NCBI GenBank assembly: GCA_036253035.1
Contig: GCA_036253035.1_4123.1
Source: a phage
DNA length: 64,000 bases
Strand: one strand, 5' to 3'
Below, in pieces: positions 649 to 12,248 of this stretch. The translations under genes were made by a program, and so were the position numbers. Under the pieces are notes generated by a model. The model searched no databases. It was not told where the DNA came from and saw only the letters and a list, made by a program, of their open reading frames with translations. The number at the start of each line of letters is the position of its first letter. Positions within the stretch are counted from its first letter, which is position 1.

Positions 649-676
649 AAAAAAGGCTGACCGAAGTCAACCTTTT
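649..676 (-). terminator. rho-independent terminator (GGUUGAC-UUCG-GUCAGCC hairpin + U tract)
   Basis: plus aaaaaaGGCTGACCGAAGTCAACC; on minus strand perfect stem with one G-U pair, UUCG tetraloop, followed by U run. Confidence 0.8.
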
Positions 677-2766: not shown

Positions 2767-3321
2767 TTATTTCAAAGAATCATAGTAAGCAGTGTCAAAG
2801 ATTGGAGTCATAATAACATAGTCAATACGGTCAATGTAAGTTGAACTCCACATTTCTGGTTTGTCATATAACTGACGCTCGCGTTCATTCATACGAGTCA
2901 GTACTTCTTCCAATTTACTACGTGAATCCATCAATGTATTACTCGAACCATAAGTGAAGTACTCAGTCCAATGATATTCATATTCAGTACTGATAGATTG
3001 AATAGTACCATCTTTGAAATGAGCTAAGGCATAACCTTTCTCTACAAAGTTATCAGGTGGAAGAACACCATCTGGATTAGTTTTCAAGGCTTGTGCTAAC
3101 TTTTCTTTAATTTCAGTTAACGTGCATACTGAACGAATGTTCTTCAGGTTTGATACTTGAAAATCACTGTACTTTCCAAAGAAAAAGACACGCCAATCTT
3201 TAGGTTCATTATCAGATACGGTAGCATTAGGATGATGGGCGAGTAAACGAAGAAGGCCAGCTTTATGACCGTTAATGTAGATTTCATGGATGTGGTTAGC
3301 AGTTTTCTTAAAAGTAATCAT
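2767..3321 (-). CDS. hypothetical protein
   Basis: minus ORF 184 aa. Confidence 0.6.
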   Translation of the reverse strand: MITFKKTANHIHEIYINGHKAGLLRLLAHHPNATVSDNEPKDWRVFFFGKYSDFQVSNLKNIRSVCTLTEIKEKLAQALKTNPDGVLPPDNFVEKGYALAHFKDGTIQSISTEYEYHWTEYFTYGSSNTLMDSRSKLEEVLTRMNERERQLYDKPEMWSSTYIDRIDYVIMTPIFDTAYYDSLK

Positions 3322-3369
3322 GGTAGTTCCTCGATTGTAGGGATGAGAAGTTCATCCCCCTTGATAAGC

Positions 3370-3397
3370 ATTATACAGTACTGAATGTGTTTGTCAA
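3370..3397 (-). promoter_or_regulatory. sigma-70-type promoter (TTGACA-16-TATAAT)
   Basis: minus strand GTTGACAaacacattcagtactgTATAATG; spacer contains CAGTACTG. Confidence 0.65.
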
Positions 3398-3398
3398 C

Positions 3399-3794
3399 TC
3401 AAAATAAATTCATTTCATGTGCGTATTGTGGTTCAAGATAAGATAAGTTTTTGAAACTGTCTTTCAATTCCGCAGCATCTACGTACACAGTACCAGGTAC
3501 ATTCCCCATAGTGAAGCCAACCCAAACAGTCATGTTTCCAGTTCCTAAGCGGGGCATTGATAGCGTCCCATCAGGTGAAACATCAAACGCTACACTAAAG
3601 TCATCCGTTACAACTTCCGAACCATTTTCCAGAATAATACAACCACGTTCTTTAAGCTTCTGAATGTGGATAGCAGCCTCTACAGCACGTTTAAAGTTAT
3701 AGTAAGACTCTTTATCCTCAAACATAGATTGTTTAACCAGACGCTTGTTTAGCTCGGTTACTTTGTACATTTGTCGCATTATTTCAACACCCAT
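3399..3794 (-). CDS. hypothetical protein
   Basis: minus ORF 131 aa. Confidence 0.55.
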   Translation of the reverse strand: MGVEIMRQMYKVTELNKRLVKQSMFEDKESYYNFKRAVEAAIHIQKLKERGCIILENGSEVVTDDFSVAFDVSPDGTLSMPRLGTGNMTVWVGFTMGNVPGTVYVDAAELKDSFKNLSYLEPQYAHEMNLF

Positions 3795-4033
3795 AGTGGT
3801 AGGATTTCATATGAACCTGGAGGTGCTGGATTGATAATCTCAGGGTATTCAGTACTGTTAGGATTACCACCAGCATTGAACTCAGCAAGTAATAATTCGA
3901 GTTCATTCCTATCATGTACAACAAACACGCAATATCCAGTTCCTTCTTCAAGAACTGTAGTTGACCCCGCACAATCCCATACGGTATCAATACATAATAA
4001 TTCTTTAGTGTTTTTATTACGCAACGCAAACAT
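3779..4033 (-). CDS. hypothetical protein
   Basis: 84 aa; strong RBS AGGAGA before ATG; preferred over alternate-frame ORF 3784..4086. Confidence 0.55.
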   Translation of the reverse strand: MFALRNKNTKELLCIDTVWDCAGSTTVLEEGTGYCVFVVHDRNELELLLAEFNAGGNPNSTEYPEIINPAPPGSYEILPLWVLK

Positions 4034-4042
4034 ATATGTCTC

Positions 4043-4387
4043 CTATCGATTCGGCATATTCGTTCGTAGTCGCAAGAGAAATTCAACCACTGACCATGTT
4101 GTAATGAAGGCTATATAAGTTGCAAGGAATCCAGTAAGAATAAATGCAACCAGCGTACTACCATTTGGGGAATCAGTTTTAATGCCGATGACACCATCGG
4201 CTACAGTGAAACATGTAGCCATTAATGTGTAACCTACGTACAACACAAAGAAAAACTCATTCTCCATTGAAGGATAGAAACGGTTAAACACTTTATAAAA
4301 TTTAAAGTACAGTAGGATTATACCAACAAAGGCATAGAATGTAAACAGTGTTGTTATAATATATGAGATTAGGTTCAAATTATACAT
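4043..4387 (-). CDS. membrane protein, paralog 1 of 3 (4 predicted TM)
   Basis: ATG at 4387 with GGAG RBS (track ORF starts 4411 at GTG); motifs F(K/R)Y.(V/T)L..R.YP and C-terminal R..NxPE(R/K) shared with next two genes. Confidence 0.6.
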   Translation of the reverse strand: MYNLNLISYIITTLFTFYAFVGIILLYFKFYKVFNRFYPSMENEFFFVLYVGYTLMATCFTVADGVIGIKTDSPNGSTLVAFILTGFLATYIAFITTWSVVEFLLRLRTNMPNR

Positions 4388-4388
4388 A

Positions 4389-4730
4389 TCAACGCTCCGG
4401 TAGATTATCACGTAATGTTTTAATTCGATGATACATTTTCATACCAATATTACCAAAGATACCATATCCAAGTACTAAAATGTATGCAATAAGCATAGTA
4501 ATAATTACTATAGTACCAAAACTATAATGTACACTACTGATACCCATTGTAGTTTCAACGATTATTTGAGAAACTGAAAGAATCAAAAGTACAACTACAA
4601 TTGGATGATTTGGGTACATTCGGTTGAACAACGTTTTGTACTTAAAGAAGCACAGTACTCCACCGAATAAGAAGTAAACAATGTAAATGCAAGCAACAGC
4701 ATAGGCAAACATGTTAGTGTAATAAATCAT
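4389..4730 (-). CDS. membrane protein, paralog 2 of 3
   Basis: 113 aa, hydrophobic, shared motifs as above. Confidence 0.6.
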   Translation of the reverse strand: MIYYTNMFAYAVACIYIVYFLFGGVLCFFKYKTLFNRMYPNHPIVVVLLILSVSQIIVETTMGISSVHYSFGTIVIITMLIAYILVLGYGIFGNIGMKMYHRIKTLRDNLPER

Positions 4731-4739
4731 TACAAATCC

Positions 4740-5078
4740 TTACTTTTCAGGGATATTAGAACGCCATATATCAATGCGATGAACTAGTCCAAAGAACAAC
4801 CATACTGGAACGGCAGCTATCATAACAACAAATGAAAACCCAGTCAAGACCGATACCAGATTTAATTCATCAGTACTATACCCACATATCAGTACTTCTA
4901 ATATTCCCCACGTACATGCACAAAACATCAAGAATGAAATTGGGGCATCATAGTAGATACGTTCATATAAAGTAGTGTATCGGAAGAATGCAATAATGTA
5001 GCAAAACATATAATACACCCAAACCAAAGATACTACATAAAATGATACTTTGTTTATTAATTCAAAATATTGTTCCAT
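4740..5078 (-). CDS. membrane protein, paralog 3 of 3
   Basis: 112 aa, hydrophobic, shared motifs as above. Confidence 0.6.
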   Translation of the reverse strand: MEQYFELINKVSFYVVSLVWVYYMFCYIIAFFRYTTLYERIYYDAPISFLMFCACTWGILEVLICGYSTDELNLVSVLTGFSFVVMIAAVPVWLFFGLVHRIDIWRSNIPEK

Positions 5079-5080
5079 TT

Positions 5081-5362
5081 TTACCCCAATATATATTCAG
5101 AGAGTAATGTATTAGCTTCATCTTTGTTCTTAAGGTAATACATGTAATATAGATTCGGTTCACCATCTTTAGCACTCAAATCGAAGTACTTTAAACTATG
5201 TACTTTCATAGTAAAAACAAATAATGGCTTAAAACCAATCTCACCGTACTTAATAAACAGTTCATCCAAATGAATGTAACTTTTTGATTTGGATAATTCT
5301 TTAACGTCTGCATCAATTTCAGATAAAAGATGCTTACCTATTAAGTTTTCAAATGAACGCAT
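5081..5362 (-). CDS. hypothetical protein
   Basis: minus ORF 93 aa. Confidence 0.5.
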   Translation of the reverse strand: MRSFENLIGKHLLSEIDADVKELSKSKSYIHLDELFIKYGEIGFKPLFVFTMKVHSLKYFDLSAKDGEPNLYYMYYLKNKDEANTLLSEYILG

Positions 5363-5423
5363 GATTTTATCCTTTACCGCAATTTTTATGGTTTATTAAG
5401 AATACACCAGAACATCAGTTCTG

Positions 5424-6065
5424 TCAATAAAAAACTGGATCTTCTTCAGTAACTGGTATTTCTCTACGTACATCACACGAAAGAGGATCAGTAATGAATA
5501 CATTGCCATCTTTATCCATCATGACATTACTGGAATGAATGTCTGGTACAAAACGCCCGTGAAACTCTTTCATGATGTTAGCAGCGACCGTCGCAATAGC
5601 AATCTCTTCAGAATTTCCACGCATATCATTCACTGAAGTAGCGTACTGACCAGCATGTGCATACGAATACAAATCACCAATTTTAGTACTAACAAAGTCA
5701 TCATAATTATTTTTTTGTTTAATTATAGGATAGTACTTGTCCATCTCATACCATCCAAAGTTTCCTTGTTCGTTGGCACTGTAGATCACTGGAAGAAACT
5801 TGGTTCCTGCGTTTTCAATGCAGTACTTTGCATAAGCACGAAAACCATCCCAGCGTGAAGTGGTTACTTTAAATGCACGTCCAGGATAGTTTTTATGTTC
5901 AACTACTACAGAGTACATCCCCATTCCAAGCAAAGTAAGTCCAGCAGCTTTAACTTGTGGAAAGATTACGCGTTCAGCATAAGGAATATCAAACTCCATC
6001 GCACAACGAGTTTTTGATGGACGCAAAATGTCAATTAAAGTTTTGAATATTTCTTGCTTAGTCAT
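5424..6065 (-). CDS. protein-kinase-like fold protein (putative Ser/Thr kinase)
   Basis: Gly-rich loop LGMGMYSVV, AFKV lysine motif, catalytic-loop-like DIHSSNVMMD, ITD; probable start ATG 6065 with AGGA RBS (track start 6098). Confidence 0.5.
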   Translation of the reverse strand: MTKQEIFKTLIDILRPSKTRCAMEFDIPYAERVIFPQVKAAGLTLLGMGMYSVVVEHKNYPGRAFKVTTSRWDGFRAYAKYCIENAGTKFLPVIYSANEQGNFGWYEMDKYYPIIKQKNNYDDFVSTKIGDLYSYAHAGQYATSVNDMRGNSEEIAIATVAANIMKEFHGRFVPDIHSSNVMMDKDGNVFITDPLSCDVRREIPVTEEDPVFY

Positions 6066-6101
6066 TACTTTATCCTCTGTAGTTAATATCAACATCATAA
6101 C

Positions 6102-6126
6102 AAAAAAGGCTGACCGAAGTCAACCC
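6102..6126 (-). terminator. rho-independent terminator, conserved UUCG hairpin
   Basis: aaaaaaGGCTGACCGAAGTCAACC. Confidence 0.8.
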
Positions 6127-6134
6127 TTTTATTA

Positions 6135-6554
6135 TCATTTACAGTTTTCTATAACTATTGCACGTTTTAGTATTTTACTTTCATAAACATACTTAAGATG
6201 ACCTTCTTCACGAATACGATTGAACACATATCCTAGTTTATCTTTTAGTACTGAAGCGGTATCAATGTCAAGATTAACTTCAACCCCTCCTGTTAATTTA
6301 ACTTTATATGTAAAGCTAAAAGCATCACCAGATTCAACCAATGGGACTACTTGTTCATACGTATTCAACATAACTCGTTCATCATTAACTAAATTATATA
6401 TTACAATATCACAAGTTTTTACCCCAATTTCCTCTAAGGTAGGAGCATTGTCTACTATAACATCTTTTACTGTATTAGCAACCTGTTTAGCATCTGCTGC
6501 ATATACATTAAAACTAAGAAGTACTAAAATAATACTTAAAAAAATCTTTTTCAT
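6135..6554 (-). CDS. secreted protein (signal peptide)
   Basis: 139 aa; MKKIFLSIILVLLSFNVYA|AD. Confidence 0.6.
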   Translation of the reverse strand: MKKIFLSIILVLLSFNVYAADAKQVANTVKDVIVDNAPTLEEIGVKTCDIVIYNLVNDERVMLNTYEQVVPLVESGDAFSFTYKVKLTGGVEVNLDIDTASVLKDKLGYVFNRIREEGHLKYVYESKILKRAIVIENCK

Positions 6555-6563
6555 TATATATCC

Positions 6564-6887
6564 TTATTTTATTTTACACGTCATATCGGGTTGTGCTGGT
6601 TTATTATTTTTAAAAGGATTAGGTTTTTTATCTTTCTTTTTATCTTTTAATGGTTTTTTGTCTTCTTTTTTATCTTTGTCTTTTTTATTGGTATCAGATT
6701 CAGTTGGAGTATTACATTGTGCTGGTGATGGGTTTGTTGGGTTACAGCTATTGTCTGGTGGGAGTTTTACTTCTTTACAATTGTAAAATAGTAAACTTTT
6801 ATTTGTGGTTAAATTATGAAAACGATAATTTATTTCATTATTATAATAAATTTTTTTAGTACTTTCAATGTCATTACACATTGCCAC
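6564..6887 (-). CDS. hypothetical Lys/Asp-rich low-complexity protein
   Basis: 107 aa, KDKDKKEDKKP repeats. Confidence 0.4.
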   Translation of the reverse strand: MAMCNDIESTKKIYYNNEINYRFHNLTTNKSLLFYNCKEVKLPPDNSCNPTNPSPAQCNTPTESDTNKKDKDKKEDKKPLKDKKKDKKPNPFKNNKPAQPDMTCKIK

Positions 6888-6891
6888 GGAA

Positions 6892-7143
6892 TCACCGAAA
6901 CTCTTTTTCTATTCCGAGTACATCCGTCTTACGCTCAGATAGTATACCTGAAGTATATGAATCTTTGTTGTCAAACGCATTAAATCCAATAGTTCTGTCG
7001 GTGTCGTGTATTATTCCTTTTGTGTATGAGGTAGTATAGAACTCCCCATTTCTGAAATCCTGCCTTGCTACGGAGCAATGATAATCTGCACCATAAGCAG
7101 TACTGGAAAATAATACAATTCCAAATATAATATATTTTTTCAT
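6892..7143 (-). CDS. secreted protein (signal peptide)
   Basis: 83 aa; MKKYIIFGIVLFSSTAYGA. Confidence 0.55.
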   Translation of the reverse strand: MKKYIIFGIVLFSSTAYGADYHCSVARQDFRNGEFYTTSYTKGIIHDTDRTIGFNAFDNKDSYTSGILSERKTDVLGIEKEFR

Positions 7144-7177
7144 TGTAATCCTCTTCTTAATTCCTCTTTTGTATTTA

Positions 7178-7202
7178 CAAAAAAAGGCTGACCGAAGTCA
7201 AC
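7178..7202 (-). terminator. rho-independent terminator, conserved UUCG hairpin
   Basis: aaaaaaaGGCTGACCGAAGTCAACC. Confidence 0.8.
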
Positions 7203-7213
7203 CTTTAGTTTTA

Positions 7214-8767
7214 TCATTTACCGTATTTGCTCATGATGTCCTTTTCCCAATGAGTTACGTTACCGTTATCGTAATCTTTAAAGGAATTATCAAGAGTAGT
7301 TAATGCATATTCGTATGCTTCAGGTGATTCAATGTCAACATCATCAGCACCATTTACTAAATCAGTCCATGCTTTTTGTAGTTTACGAGCATTTTTACCA
7401 ACATTACTTTTAATCCAACTAATGTTTTTGTTGATACTCTTATTATCAGCACCAGCTTTTTTACCAATATCGGATATCCACATCATTAGCTTTTGGAGTT
7501 CATGAATGGAGTTGTCGTTCATTTCACGATCTTTAGCCAATTCTGCTTCCATGCCATCAGTATCAGTACCATCTTTAGAACCTACATCAATTCCATGTTT
7601 AGCTAATAGTTTACCAAGTTCAAAGAATGCTGCCTCAGCAGGGAAGTCATAACCTTTGTCTTTGTAGTTGTTCCATGCACTATCAAACTCATCTACAAAT
7701 CGGTTGGCATAATCTGGATTGTCCACGAGAGCTTTGTACACTGCCATTGCATGTTCAAATCCTTCTTTGTCAGAACCAAACTCTCCCATTTCTGGACGAT
7801 GAATGTAACCATCCATATCAACAGTATCAGGTAAATCATCATGAGATGTTTCAGCATCTTTCTGGTCAACTGCACCTTCTTCATCATCACGCATCAGATA
7901 ACCATCTCGTGTAACCTTCTCACCGTGATCAGCTTCATACTTTTTCATAGTATTGAATGCAGCATCCATTGCAGTTACAAAACGACTCTTTTCACCTTGT
8001 ACATAAGATTTAAGTGCATCGTTAACTGCATCAGATACTAATTTAATCTTATCGTCTTTACCTTCCAGACGGTTTTCTAACTTAGCTAGTACATTCTTAA
8101 CTTGTTGAGCATTAGCACGGTCTTCTTTACCAATACTATCAAATGTTTTAAGTACGCTTTCAAGACTTACTTCCTCTTGTGCAGGCACATCACCTTGTTG
8201 CGTACCTTCAAGTGCACGCATTATAGTACTGAATACTTCAGTTGGTTCAGTACTGGTATTTCCACTCATTGCATCAAGTACAGCTTGTGCTTTGACTTTT
8301 AATTCTTCTTTAGGTACAGATTGCAATTCTTTCACAATACCTTGGATAAGTTGTGGTTTATTAGCAAAAATCTTACCTAACTTATCAGACAATTCTTTGA
8401 CAGGGTTAACCGCCTTTGGTGCTTCTTGTTTTGGTTCTTCTTTCGCAGGAGAAGACTTTTCTTTTTCTTCACGTTCCATATCAGCTAGGCGTTGTTTTTG
8501 TGTAGCATTAAGAAGTCCCAATGAATTAACATAACGTAGCTTTTCTAGCTCAGTCATGTTCTCAGTACTCTTAACTTCACCTGCTTCTGCGTTTGCTTTA
8601 CCAGCTAGACCAGTTCCTTGGTTACGTGATCCACGTGAACCTTGACCTGCTTGATAACTATTTGGTCGGCGGTTGCGTTCACTCCATTTATCCGAGTGAC
8701 CAGCCATGTTACCACCATTTTTATCAGTAAAATTACTTGGCATTTGATTTCTCTCCATAGATTTCAT
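7214..8767 (-). CDS. large hydrophilic protein, unknown function
   Basis: 517 aa, acidic/coiled; shares KYLxSLGLL motif with 9014..9397; TATAAATA-like motif about 25 nt upstream. Confidence 0.7.
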   Translation of the reverse strand: MKSMERNQMPSNFTDKNGGNMAGHSDKWSERNRRPNSYQAGQGSRGSRNQGTGLAGKANAEAGEVKSTENMTELEKLRYVNSLGLLNATQKQRLADMEREEKEKSSPAKEEPKQEAPKAVNPVKELSDKLGKIFANKPQLIQGIVKELQSVPKEELKVKAQAVLDAMSGNTSTEPTEVFSTIMRALEGTQQGDVPAQEEVSLESVLKTFDSIGKEDRANAQQVKNVLAKLENRLEGKDDKIKLVSDAVNDALKSYVQGEKSRFVTAMDAAFNTMKKYEADHGEKVTRDGYLMRDDEEGAVDQKDAETSHDDLPDTVDMDGYIHRPEMGEFGSDKEGFEHAMAVYKALVDNPDYANRFVDEFDSAWNNYKDKGYDFPAEAAFFELGKLLAKHGIDVGSKDGTDTDGMEAELAKDREMNDNSIHELQKLMMWISDIGKKAGADNKSINKNISWIKSNVGKNARKLQKAWTDLVNGADDVDIESPEAYEYALTTLDNSFKDYDNGNVTHWEKDIMSKYGK

Positions 8768-8798
8768 TTTTTTCTCTATGTCTATATTTATAGTATAA

Positions 8799-8822
8799 AG
8801 AAAAGGCTGACCGAAGTCAACC
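8799..8822 (-). terminator. rho-independent terminator, conserved UUCG hairpin
   Basis: gaaaaGGCTGACCGAAGTCAACC. Confidence 0.75.
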
Positions 8823-8830
8823 TTATTTTG

Positions 8831-8944
8831 TTACTTAGATTGTTCTTGTGCAGGTGGATTTACTTTTTGATCCACTACATAGAATACACCACCAACCAGT
8901 ACTGCGGCGATGAGTGCAGCAACTACAAATTTCAAACCTTGCAT
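8831..8944 (-). CDS. small membrane peptide (37 aa), not in ORF track
   Basis: MQGLKFVVAALIAAVLVGGVFYVVDQK..; RBS GAGGT; bracketed by two terminators. Confidence 0.45.
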   Translation of the reverse strand: MQGLKFVVAALIAAVLVGGVFYVVDQKVNPPAQEQSK

Positions 8945-8980
8945 ATATGATACCTCAGTTATATTGAGAAGTTATGATAC

Positions 8981-9006
8981 AACAAAGGGCTGACCTTAGT
9001 CAACCC
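8981..9006 (-). terminator. rho-independent terminator, variant of conserved hairpin
   Basis: GGGCTGACCTTAGTCAACCCC with flanking A/T runs. Confidence 0.7.
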
Positions 9007-9013
9007 CTTTTTA

Positions 9014-9397
9014 TTACTTCTTGAACTTATGTTTTTCACTTTCGATTGCATTCACGATTTCATCATGAATTTTACGAAGATTGTGAGTTTTCTTGAGAGA
9101 ATCATGCAATGCACGGAATGCAGAGTGTACTGTTGCTTTAAAGTGCTCTTTAGGAGTTACTTTAAGTTTCTCGATAATATCACGTACATAGATTGGGTGA
9201 TCCTCAAACACACGATTAAGCTCATGACCTAGTGATTCTAGGCTAAATGCTTTTTCACGGGATGGACGATCATGTGCAAGACTTTGGTCCGGTTTTAGAA
9301 GACCTAGTGAATCTAGATACTTGTGCTTATGTGCATTGTCTAGACCAGAAATATCAACATCATGTGATGGATCTTTCTTATTCCATTTATCAACCAT
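9014..9397 (-). CDS. hypothetical protein sharing N-terminal motif with 517-aa protein
   Basis: 127 aa; KYLDSLGLLKPDQ. Confidence 0.6.
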   Translation of the reverse strand: MVDKWNKKDPSHDVDISGLDNAHKHKYLDSLGLLKPDQSLAHDRPSREKAFSLESLGHELNRVFEDHPIYVRDIIEKLKVTPKEHFKATVHSAFRALHDSLKKTHNLRKIHDEIVNAIESEKHKFKK

Positions 9398-9475
9398 TTT
9401 TATAACTCCTATAAGAGATAAATTTTACTATAATATTTATAGTTCCGTTGTCATTTATATCGAATGACATAAAAC

Positions 9476-9503
9476 ATTATATCATAATAAGAATGGTTGT
9501 CCC
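9476..9503 (-). promoter_or_regulatory. promoter, extended -10 (TGaTATAAT) with weak -35
   Basis: minus GGGACA-16-TATAAT preceded by TG; upstream of 9014..9397. Confidence 0.4.
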
Positions 9504-12224: not shown

Positions 12225-12248
12225 AAAAAAGGCTGACCGAAGTCAACC
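12225..12248 (-). terminator. rho-independent terminator, conserved UUCG hairpin
   Basis: aaaaaaGGCTGACCGAAGTCAACC; stop codon of 12243..12434 embedded in hairpin. Confidence 0.75.

What the first reader, a model, noticed from the sequence alone, without database searches (positions are those of the whole stretch)
5424..6065. Small protein-kinase-like protein
Gly-rich loop (LGMGMYSVV), an AFKV lysine motif, a catalytic-loop-like DIHSSNVMMD and an ITD motif are in the order and spacing of a protein-kinase fold, in a roughly 213-aa protein. Phage kinases are rare and typically act on host transcription or defence machinery.
Basis: partly seen in the sequence, partly recalled or inferred. Interest (0 to 1): 0.55.

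Follow-up and report, generated by a model that had tools for sequence, protein, structure and literature searches.

The report
Jumbo-phage T7-type protein kinase

Summary

The window is about 99% identical to Asteriusvirus jumbo coliphages (121Q, PBECO4, G17, phAPEC6, Sharanji).

- **Family:** the protein belongs to the phage T7 gp0.7 kinase family. It matches PHROG 15752 (E 1e-91) and PHROG 2828 (E 8e-17), and its relatives carry Pfam PF27024 Phage_T7_kinase. It is 26% identical to the T7 gp0.7 kinase domain, and every catalytic motif aligns.
- **Fold:** a confident AlphaFold2 model (pLDDT 93) hits only kinase-fold enzymes in the PDB: protein kinases plus a few aminoglycoside phosphotransferases. 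It also matches Autographiviridae kinase models (TM 0.70-0.75).
- **Differences from T7:** it lacks the T7 C-terminal shutoff/DNA-binding domain. The chain ends 20 residues after a DPL motif that stands in for DFG.
- **Expression:** a hairpin terminator with an embedded sigma-70-like promoter sits directly upstream, which suggests early expression. The protein is absent from the phAPEC6 virion proteome.

It is already known. GenBank annotates it as a protein kinase, and a 2025 Sharanji paper and a 2026 Nature paper both name this jumbophage homologue. Its activity and substrates remain untested. Interest is low.

The parts
5424..6065 (-). CDS of the 213-aa stand-alone T7 gp0.7-type protein kinase (stop codon 5424-5426; 24.3 kDa, pI 5.8)
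   Evidence: ORF list and sequence; PHROG 15752 E 1e-91; BLASTP to T7 gp0.7 E 5e-9; relatives carry PF27024 Phage_T7_kinase; AF2 model pLDDT 93.3; mass and pI
5946..6065 (-). N-terminal region of three helices (residues 1-40), conserved within the jumbophage clade and different from the N-terminal 67 residues of T7 gp0.7
   Evidence: DSSP on the model: helices 3-14, 17-25, 27-40, pLDDT 94-98. Alignment A1. Similarity to T7 and to most listed T7-like phage kinases starts around residues 31-42
5913..5930 (-). Glycine-rich ATP loop LGMGMY (residues 46-51). G49 aligns with T7K G76, whose G76F change is the catalytic-dead mutant
   Evidence: Invariant G47 and G49; T7 numbering; G76F in PMC13645617
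5868..5870 (-). K66, beta3 lysine of AFKV (aligns with T7K K93)
   Evidence: Lies in strand 63-68 of the model; invariant in 27/27 sequences and with T7
5526..5543 (-). Catalytic loop D175-I-H-S-S-N180 (aligns with T7K DMHSGN)
   Evidence: D175, H177 and N180 invariant; aligned to T7
5481..5489 (-). D193-P194-L195, the DFG-equivalent Mg-binding motif (T7K DPV 213-215). It is followed by S196, which aligns with T7K S216
   Evidence: Reverse complement of 5481-5489 reads GAT CCT CTT. D193 is 27/27 and P194 26/27; S196 is Ser in only 3/27. DPV motif described in PMC13645617
5427..5474 (-). Conserved acidic C-terminal tail DVRREIPVTEEDPVFY (residues 198-213). By position it is what remains of an activation segment
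   Evidence: Consensus DLRREIPVTExDPxF: I203 26/27, P204 25/27, T206 20/27, E207 24/27, D209 23/27. Block pLDDT 73-74, against 86-98 for all earlier 10-residue blocks
6073..6077 (-). Shine-Dalgarno GAGGA, 7 nt upstream of the ATG at 6065
   Evidence: Sequence read on the minus strand
6094..6130 (-). Hairpin terminator (GGTTGAC-UUCG-GTCAGCC plus a T run) of the upstream gene, with an embedded sigma-70-like promoter: -35 TTGACT 6123-6118, 18-nt spacer, TG-extended -10 TATGAT 6099-6094
   Evidence: Promoter scan, 10 of 12 matches. RNA fold -17.4 kcal/mol, z -5.35. Seven copies in window 1-12.3 kb against 0.02 expected. G17 annotates a terminator at this spot

Best explanation
The gene encodes a catalytically active, stand-alone Ser/Thr(/Tyr) protein kinase of the phage T7 gp0.7 (T7K) family.

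It consists of an N-terminal three-helix region, a normal kinase N-lobe (G-loop, beta3 Lys66), a catalytic loop (D175-x-H-x-x-N180) and a DPL motif in place of DFG. The chain then ends after a 20-residue acidic tail. It therefore has no regulated activation loop and none of the substrate-binding C-lobe helices.

Steps inferred, not shown:
- It is transcribed by host RNA polymerase from a sigma-70-like promoter soon after infection. It is not carried in the virion.
- Like T7K and JSS1_004, it phosphorylates many host proteins with little sequence specificity. This would help host takeover and weaken defence proteins.
- Because it lacks the T7K C-terminal shutoff/DNA-binding domain, it should neither shut off host transcription by that route nor be steered towards DNA-bound substrates in the way T7K is.

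Shown here: family membership, conservation of catalytic residues, predicted fold, architecture and promoter-like context.

Inferred only: activity, timing, substrates and biological role.
For: - **Sequence family:** PHROG 15752 E 1.1e-91 and PHROG 2828 E 7.8e-17. All relatives carry PF27024 Phage_T7_kinase. BLASTP to T7 gp0.7 residues 68-230 gives 26% identity, E 5e-9. tblastn gives 776 phage records; the 748 distant ones (<60% identity) sampled are T7-like phages with gp0.7-type kinases.
- **Catalytic residues:** all are invariant, including G49, which aligns with the T7K G76 whose G76F mutant is catalytic-dead (PMC13645617).
- **Early expression:** a near-consensus sigma-70-like promoter is embedded in the upstream terminator. 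In the related phage CBB, RpoD-like promoters cluster in a region of short ORFs and a sigma factor that its authors propose as early (PMC5259590). The window carries the same kind of region, including the sigma factor gene.
- **Not in the virion:** phAPEC6 gp031c is missing from the virion MS table, while its neighbours gp035c and gp037c are listed.
- **Role:** T7K and JSS1_004 are promiscuous kinases that disarm defence systems (PMC13645617; PMC12345140).
Against: - No experiment exists for this clade. PMC13645617 says the function and promiscuity of the jumbophage homologues remain to be elucidated.
- JSS1_004 needs both its kinase and shutoff domains for full anti-Dnd activity. A kinase-only protein may therefore be a weaker or different anti-defence factor.
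- Proteins encoded in the window are not depleted in Ser/Thr/Tyr (17.6%). Autographiviridae early proteins show such depletion, which that paper takes as a mark of selection by a promiscuous kinase. The test is weak here: the genome is 33% G+C and expression classes are unknown.
- The promoter position is not conserved. In the P0014 relative the preceding gene ends 14 nt before the kinase gene.
- No invariant alphaC glutamate could be assigned. E84 is variable, while D73 is invariant.
Confidence: 0.72

Rival explanations
1. It is an active protein kinase with a narrow substrate range. It would modify one or a few host or phage proteins, for example RNA polymerase, RNases or translation factors (the classical T7 gp0.7 targets). 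Specificity would come from the clade-specific N-terminal helical region and the conserved acidic tail, not from broad promiscuity.
For: - The N-terminal 40 residues and the tail DLRREIPVTExDPxF are strongly conserved within the jumbophage clade and differ from T7.
- The window's proteins show no Ser/Thr/Tyr depletion.
- P1 Doc shows that phage kinase signalling need not be promiscuous (PMC13645617).
Against: - Every T7K-family member tested so far (T7, Bas64, Bas65, Bas66(T3K12), Bas68, JSS1_004) is promiscuous.
- The model has none of the C-lobe elements that give canonical kinases peptide specificity.
- The DP motif thought to hold T7K in an active state is retained.
Confidence: 0.2
2. It is a kinase-fold enzyme that phosphorylates a small molecule (nucleotide, sugar, lipid or antibiotic-like compound) and not proteins, in the manner of aminoglycoside phosphotransferases.
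For: - The C-lobe is truncated.
- Pfam Pkinase does not match.
Confidence: 0.04
3. It is a pseudokinase or scaffold that binds ATP or a host protein without transferring phosphate.
For: - The kinase core is very reduced.
- No clear alphaC glutamate can be assigned.
- The equivalent of the T7K S216 autophosphorylation site is not conserved in the clade.
Against: G47, G49, K66, D175, H177, N180 and D193 are invariant over sequences down to 38% identity and out to T7 itself. Pseudokinases usually lose some of these residues.
Confidence: 0.04

Closest known systems
Phage T7 gp0.7 protein kinase (T7K; UniProt P00513; Pfam PF27024 Phage_T7_kinase; PHROG 2828; CDD PHA00451) and its Autographiviridae homologues, including JSS1_004
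   Same: - The kinase domains are homologous: 26% identity over 178 residues.
- Residues align as G47/G49 = G74/G76, K66 = K93, D175-H177-N180 = D195-H197-N200, D193-P194 = D213-P214, and S196 = S216.
- The kinase domain is similarly minimal and ends shortly after the DPx motif.
- The predicted folds are similar: TMq 0.70-0.75 to BFVD models.
- Both are probably early genes read by host RNA polymerase. This is established knowledge for T7; it is inferred here.
   Different: - There is no C-terminal shutoff/DNA-binding domain: 213 aa against 359 aa.
- The motif is DPL, not DPV.
- The N-terminal region differs and is shorter (40 against 67 residues).
- It has a clade-specific acidic tail and an acidic pI of 5.8.
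- It sits in a 350-kb myovirus and not in a 40-kb podovirus.
- Its activity is untested.
The same gene in other Asteriusvirus phages: 121Q gp205, G17_00108, phAPEC6 gp031c, Sharanji gp144 (WNN14432.1). Also the Salmonella phage Munch-type jumbophage homologues
   Same: Proteins are 99-100% identical and occupy the same locus. The Munch-type and other jumbophage relatives are about 55-66% identical and 211-218 aa long.
   Different: Nothing of substance. Annotated starts differ: 224 aa in 121Q and Sharanji, 213 aa in G17 and phAPEC6.
Eukaryotic-type protein kinases (ePK; Pfam Pkinase PF00069) and bacterial Hanks-type kinases such as PknB
   Different: - Only about 125 of 213 residues superpose, and Foldseek TMq is 0.35-0.43.
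- The model shows no activation loop/APE and no alphaF-alphaI helices.
- The catalytic loop reads DxHxxN, not HRDxxxxN, and the motif is DPL, not DFG.
- Pfam has no match even at E 10.

Membership tests
Phage T7 gp0.7-type kinase family (PF27024 Phage_T7_kinase / PHROG 2828 and 15752) | Significant sequence similarity to the gp0.7 kinase domain or the family profile | tested here: met
   PHROG 15752 E 1.1e-91 and PHROG 2828 E 7.8e-17. BLASTP to T7 gp0.7 E 5e-9. The 99%-identical cluster representative P0001 and all relatives carry a precomputed PF27024 hit. The local Pfam copy does not appear to hold PF27024, since it returned no hit.
Phage T7 gp0.7-type kinase family (PF27024 Phage_T7_kinase / PHROG 2828 and 15752) | Catalytic residues: G-loop glycine equivalent to T7K G76, beta3 Lys, DxHxxN catalytic loop | tested here: met
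   G49, K66, D175, H177 and N180 are invariant in 27/27 relatives and in the alignment with T7 gp0.7.
Phage T7 gp0.7-type kinase family (PF27024 Phage_T7_kinase / PHROG 2828 and 15752) | DP(V) motif in place of DFG | tested here: met
   The motif is D193-P194-L195. DP is conserved; the third residue is Leu, not Val. This agrees with PMC13645617, which reports that the valine is less conserved in jumbophage homologues. Among 174 family representatives the counts are PV 90, PL 37, PI 17.
Phage T7 gp0.7-type kinase family (PF27024 Phage_T7_kinase / PHROG 2828 and 15752) | Protein Ser/Thr/Tyr kinase activity | not testable with these tools
   This needs purified protein or phosphoproteomics. No published test for this clade was found.
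Full-length T7K architecture (kinase domain plus C-terminal shutoff/DNA-binding domain) | C-terminal basic shutoff (SO) domain after the kinase domain | tested here: not met
   The protein ends 20 residues after D193 and its tail is acidic. PMC13645617 also states that the jumbophage homologues lost the SO domain.
Full-length T7K architecture (kinase domain plus C-terminal shutoff/DNA-binding domain) | Inhibitory autophosphorylation serine directly after DPV (T7K S216) | tested here: inconclusive
   S196 is present in this protein. The position is Ser in only 3 of 27 clade members (Ala 15, Gly 9). Phosphorylation itself cannot be tested here.
Eukaryotic-type protein kinase superfamily (protein-kinase-like fold) | Bilobal kinase fold with an ATP site between the lobes | tested here: met
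Eukaryotic-type protein kinase superfamily (protein-kinase-like fold) | Canonical C-lobe: activation segment ending in APE, and helices alphaF-alphaI | tested here: not met
   After D193 the model has one short strand (195-198) and a lower-confidence tail to residue 213. No helix follows residue 168.
Eukaryotic-type protein kinase superfamily (protein-kinase-like fold) | Match to Pfam Pkinase (PF00069) or PK_Tyr_Ser-Thr profiles | tested here: not met
   Pfam-A returned no family even at E up to 10. The best PDB sequence hits to kinases have E about 1.2.

The most novel reading that the evidence does not exclude
The jumbophage clade may have replaced the T7K shutoff/DNA-binding domain with a different control or targeting device. 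The candidate is the strongly conserved acidic tail DLRREIPVTExDPxF.

The tail lies where an activation segment would be. T206 is 13 residues after the Mg-binding Asp, the same distance as in PKA from the DFG Asp184 to Thr197 (PKA numbering from my own knowledge, not tested here).

The tail could be an autophosphorylated on/off switch. It could also be an acidic, DNA-mimicking peptide with an aromatic tip that docks the kinase onto nucleic-acid-binding proteins. Either way, a kinase-only protein would gain substrate bias without a DNA-binding domain.
Probability: 0.12. Interest if true: 0.5.

Novelty: already known. Interest (0 to 1): 0.2.

Why it matters
T7-type kinases have recently been shown to phosphorylate nearly the whole host proteome and to disarm several bacterial defence systems. 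The jumbophage version is a natural kinase-only form of that enzyme.

It could show what the kinase domain does without the shutoff/DNA-binding domain, and whether 350-kb phages use blanket phosphorylation as a counter-defence.

This is a reasonable experimental follow-up, not a discovery. The gene is already annotated and already named in the literature as an open case.

Tried and rejected
- **Local Pfam-A and NCBIfam scans** gave nothing useful. The relevant family, PF27024, only showed up in precomputed annotations.
- **Sequence search of the PDB** gave only insignificant kinase hits, E about 1. No structure of this family appears to be solved.
- **The AFDB50 fold library** was unavailable.
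- **The 224-aa start** used in 121Q and Sharanji was rejected: it has no Shine-Dalgarno, its ATG lies inside the -10 hexamer, and the homologues are 213 aa.
- **Ser/Thr/Tyr depletion** was tested as a footprint of a promiscuous kinase. None was seen: 17.6% overall, 16.8% in the first 12.3 kb against 17.9% in the rest. The test is weak, because the genome is AT-rich and expression classes are unknown.
- **Functional partners next to the gene:** the neighbours have no Pfam hits and only unknown-function PHROGs. The neighbourhood is not conserved in distant relatives beyond being a run of small same-strand ORFs.
- **Structured RNAs:** no Rfam match in 3000-9500.
- **Virion packaging:** not supported. 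The kinase is absent from the phAPEC6 virion MS table.
- **Model coordinates** are not exposed by the tools. I could not check the K66 salt bridge, the ATP-site geometry, or where the N-terminal helices pack.

Full report
**What is there.** The interval 5424-6065 lies on the minus strand inside an ORF that runs 5424-6098. Read from the ATG at 6065, it gives a 213-aa protein of 24.3 kDa and pI 5.8.

The 213-aa start is the better one. GAGGA sits 7 nt upstream of it. Most close relatives are 213 aa and have an invariant M1. G17 and phAPEC6 annotate this start. The alternative ATG at 6098-6096 lies inside the -10 hexamer of a promoter-like site.

**Where the window comes from.** A 1.6-kb stretch around the gene is 98.6-99.1% identical to Asteriusvirus jumbo coliphages of about 350 kb: phAPEC6, 121Q, PBECO4, G17, Sharanji and others. 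Almost all genes in the window lie on the minus strand. Most are short and of unknown function, and they are interspersed with tRNAs and a sigma-factor gene.

**Is it a kinase?**

By sequence:
- PHROG 15752 matches at E 1.1e-91. Its description is copied from T7 gp0.7. PHROG 2828, the T7 gp0.7 family, matches at E 7.8e-17.
- Every relative in the 5.8-billion-protein collection carries a precomputed hit to PF27024, named Phage_T7_kinase. The local Pfam copy does not seem to hold that family, and returned nothing, not even Pkinase.
- Direct BLASTP against T7 gp0.7 gives 26% identity over 178 residues, E 5e-9. It covers gp0.7 residues 68-230, which is the kinase domain.
- tblastn against 50,697 phage genomes finds 776 records. 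About 28 are jumbophage orthologues; the other 748 match at below 60% identity. The records listed from that distant group are about 40-kb T7-like phages, mostly annotated with gp0.7-type kinases, at 24-32% identity.

By aligned residues:
- G47/G49 = T7K G74/G76. G76F is the published catalytic-dead mutant (PMC13645617).
- K66 = K93.
- D175-x-H177-x-x-N180 = D195-H197-N200.
- D193-P194-L195 = the T7K DPV motif at 213-215.
- S196 = S216.

All of these except position 195 and S196 are invariant in 27 relatives.

By structure:
- The AlphaFold2 model built on those 27 sequences is confident: pLDDT 93.3, pTM 0.89.
- Foldseek against the PDB returns kinases at probability 1.0 and E about 1e-5, with TMq of only 0.35-0.43.
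- Foldseek against BFVD returns a 62%-identical jumbophage protein (TM 0.91), followed by Autographiviridae protein kinases at TMq 0.70-0.75 and E 1e-14 to 1e-15.

**Anatomy and how it differs from T7K and from ordinary kinases.** The model contains, in order:
- three N-terminal helices (3-40);
- strands beta1-beta3 (44-68) carrying the G-loop and K66;
- a short helix (74-84);
- strands beta4-beta5 (94-109);
- two helices (127-139 and 152-168);
- the catalytic and Mg-binding loops on short strands (172-198).

The chain then ends at residue 213. It has no activation loop/APE and no alphaF-alphaI helices. The T7K C-terminal shutoff/DNA-binding domain is also absent.

In its place is an acidic tail that is conserved across the clade, with consensus DLRREIPVTExDPxF. 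This short ending is typical of the wider family. Of 151 proteins of at most 450 aa carrying the motif, drawn from the 174 proteins retrieved to that point, 90 have at most 30 residues after the DFG-equivalent Asp. Of the 174, 100 are at most 260 aa long.

**Expression context.** Directly upstream, at 6094-6130, lies a hairpin GGTTGAC-UUCG-GTCAGCC followed by a T run. It folds at -17.4 kcal/mol with a z-score of -5.35, and G17 annotates it as a terminator. The stem contains TTGACT. Eighteen nucleotides later comes a TG-extended TATGAT, which together form a near-consensus sigma-70 promoter.

The same 18-mer occurs seven times in window 1-12.3 kb and nowhere else in the window, against 0.02 expected by chance. 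Five of the seven copies are followed by a -10-like TATAAT/TATGAT/TATCAT; the copy at 7186 is not.

In the related phage CBB, RpoD-like promoters cluster in a region of short ORFs plus a sigma factor. Its authors propose that this is the early region (PMC5259590). The kinase (phAPEC6 gp031c) is absent from the phAPEC6 virion proteome, although its neighbours gp035c and gp037c are present.

I infer that the kinase is made early by host RNA polymerase, as T7 gene 0.7 is. This is not shown.

**Most likely mechanism.** T7K is a hyperpromiscuous dual-specificity kinase. It disarms DNA-associated defence systems, and its C-terminal domain steers it towards nucleic-acid-binding substrates (PMC13645617). 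JSS1_004 phosphorylates DndFGH and other defence proteins, but needs both its domains for full effect (PMC12345140).

The protein here keeps the whole catalytic apparatus and the DP motif, which those authors suggest keeps T7K permanently active. The best explanation is therefore an active, poorly regulated, kinase-only enzyme that phosphorylates host proteins early in infection. It would do so without the shutoff function and without DNA-directed bias.

Rivals:
- a narrow-specificity kinase steered by the clade-specific N-terminus and tail (0.2);
- a small-molecule kinase (0.04);
- a pseudokinase (0.04).

One weak argument against strong promiscuity is that the window's proteins show no Ser/Thr/Tyr depletion.

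**Novelty.** None at the level of identification:
- 121Q gp205 has been annotated as a protein kinase with the T7 gp0.7 description.
- G17_00108 is annotated 'putative protein kinase, PHA00451'.
- phAPEC6 gp031c is annotated 'protein kinase; Klebsiella phage K11 gp0.7'.
- The Sharanji paper names WNN14432.1, which is this gene, as a T7 kinase homologue that may compromise host immunity (PMC11895373).
- The 2026 Nature paper lists the G17 and Munch jumbophage homologues and notes the loss of the SO domain. [quoted passage not shown]

- The family is much larger than the 222 proteins in that paper. The profile finds 1377 representatives at 50% identity with E at or below 1e-3, and 172 at or below 1e-10. 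Kinase-only forms are common among them.
- The S216-equivalent serine is not conserved in the jumbophage clade: 3 of 27. The paper says it is conserved in all variants.
- The tail motif and the hairpin-embedded promoter are described here.

**Verdict.** The gene is ordinary and already known. The only open matter is experimental: activity, substrates and role.

Noticed in passing
window 655-672, 1199-1216, 6108-6125, 7186-7203, 8805-8822, 8988-9005, 12231-12248 (all minus strand): There are seven copies of an 18-nt hairpin core, GGTTGACTTCGGTCAGCC, with a UUCG loop. Each is followed by a T run, and five of them by a -10-like TATAAT/TATGAT/TATCAT (the copy at 7186 is not). The stem contains the -35-like TTGACT, so one element could end one transcript and start the next. 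All copies lie in the first 12.3 kb; the remaining 52 kb has none. This may mark an early or host-RNAP-read block.
   Followed up: partly
L007 193-3258 (P0037, 1021 aa; 56-kb contig of GCA_017886315.1) and L008 10001-11941 (P0176, 646 aa; 493-kb metagenome contig): Some very large phage-like contigs encode single polypeptides made of 3-5 tandem T7-kinase-like domains of about 205 aa each. P0038 (1343 aa) has at least 4. In both loci examined, a Gad2 (anti-Gabija, PF26128) homologue lies 4-6 genes away. I found no description of such poly-kinases, although no dedicated literature search was made.
   Followed up: partly
window 5478-5480 (codon of S196); alignment A2: The serine equivalent to the T7K inhibitory autophosphorylation site S216 is Ser in only 3 of 27 jumbophage-clade sequences (Ala 15, Gly 9). 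PMC13645617 describes it as conserved in all variants. T206 in the tail is conserved in 20 of 27.
   Followed up: yes
window 4043-4387, 4389-4730, 4740-5078 (minus strand): Three tandem paralogous genes encode hydrophobic proteins of about 113 aa that look membrane-spanning (PHROG 19285, unknown function). They lie just downstream of the kinase operon position.
   Followed up: partly
window 7214-8767 and 9014-9397 (minus strand): These are orthologues of phAPEC6 gp035c and gp037c, both detected in the virion by MS. The first is preceded directly by a hairpin/sigma-70-like element; for the second a 2-mismatch copy lies downstream of it, so no upstream copy was confirmed. The 517-aa protein is highly charged. 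If these are virion proteins read from early-type promoters, they might be ejected internal proteins.
   Followed up: no
window 6135-6554, 6564-6887, 6892-7143 (minus strand): Two small proteins upstream of the kinase begin with signal-peptide-like sequences (MKKIFLSIILVLLSFNVYA and MKKYIIFGIVLFSSTAYG). The gene between them encodes a Lys/Asp-rich low-complexity stretch (KKDKDKKEDKKPLKDKKKDKKPNP). Two of the three have no PHROG hit, the third only an unknown-function PHROG, and none has a Pfam hit.
   Followed up: partly
whole window: Predicted proteins contain 17.6% Ser+Thr+Tyr and the kinase itself 17.4%. There is no depletion of phospho-acceptor residues of the kind reported for early proteins of T7-like phages. 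The window is 33.3% G+C.
   Followed up: partly
outside the window (Sharanji WNN14351.1, about 81 genes upstream of the kinase): The Sharanji paper mentions a second, unrelated protein kinase of unknown function in the same phage genus. By position it should lie outside this window.
   Followed up: no
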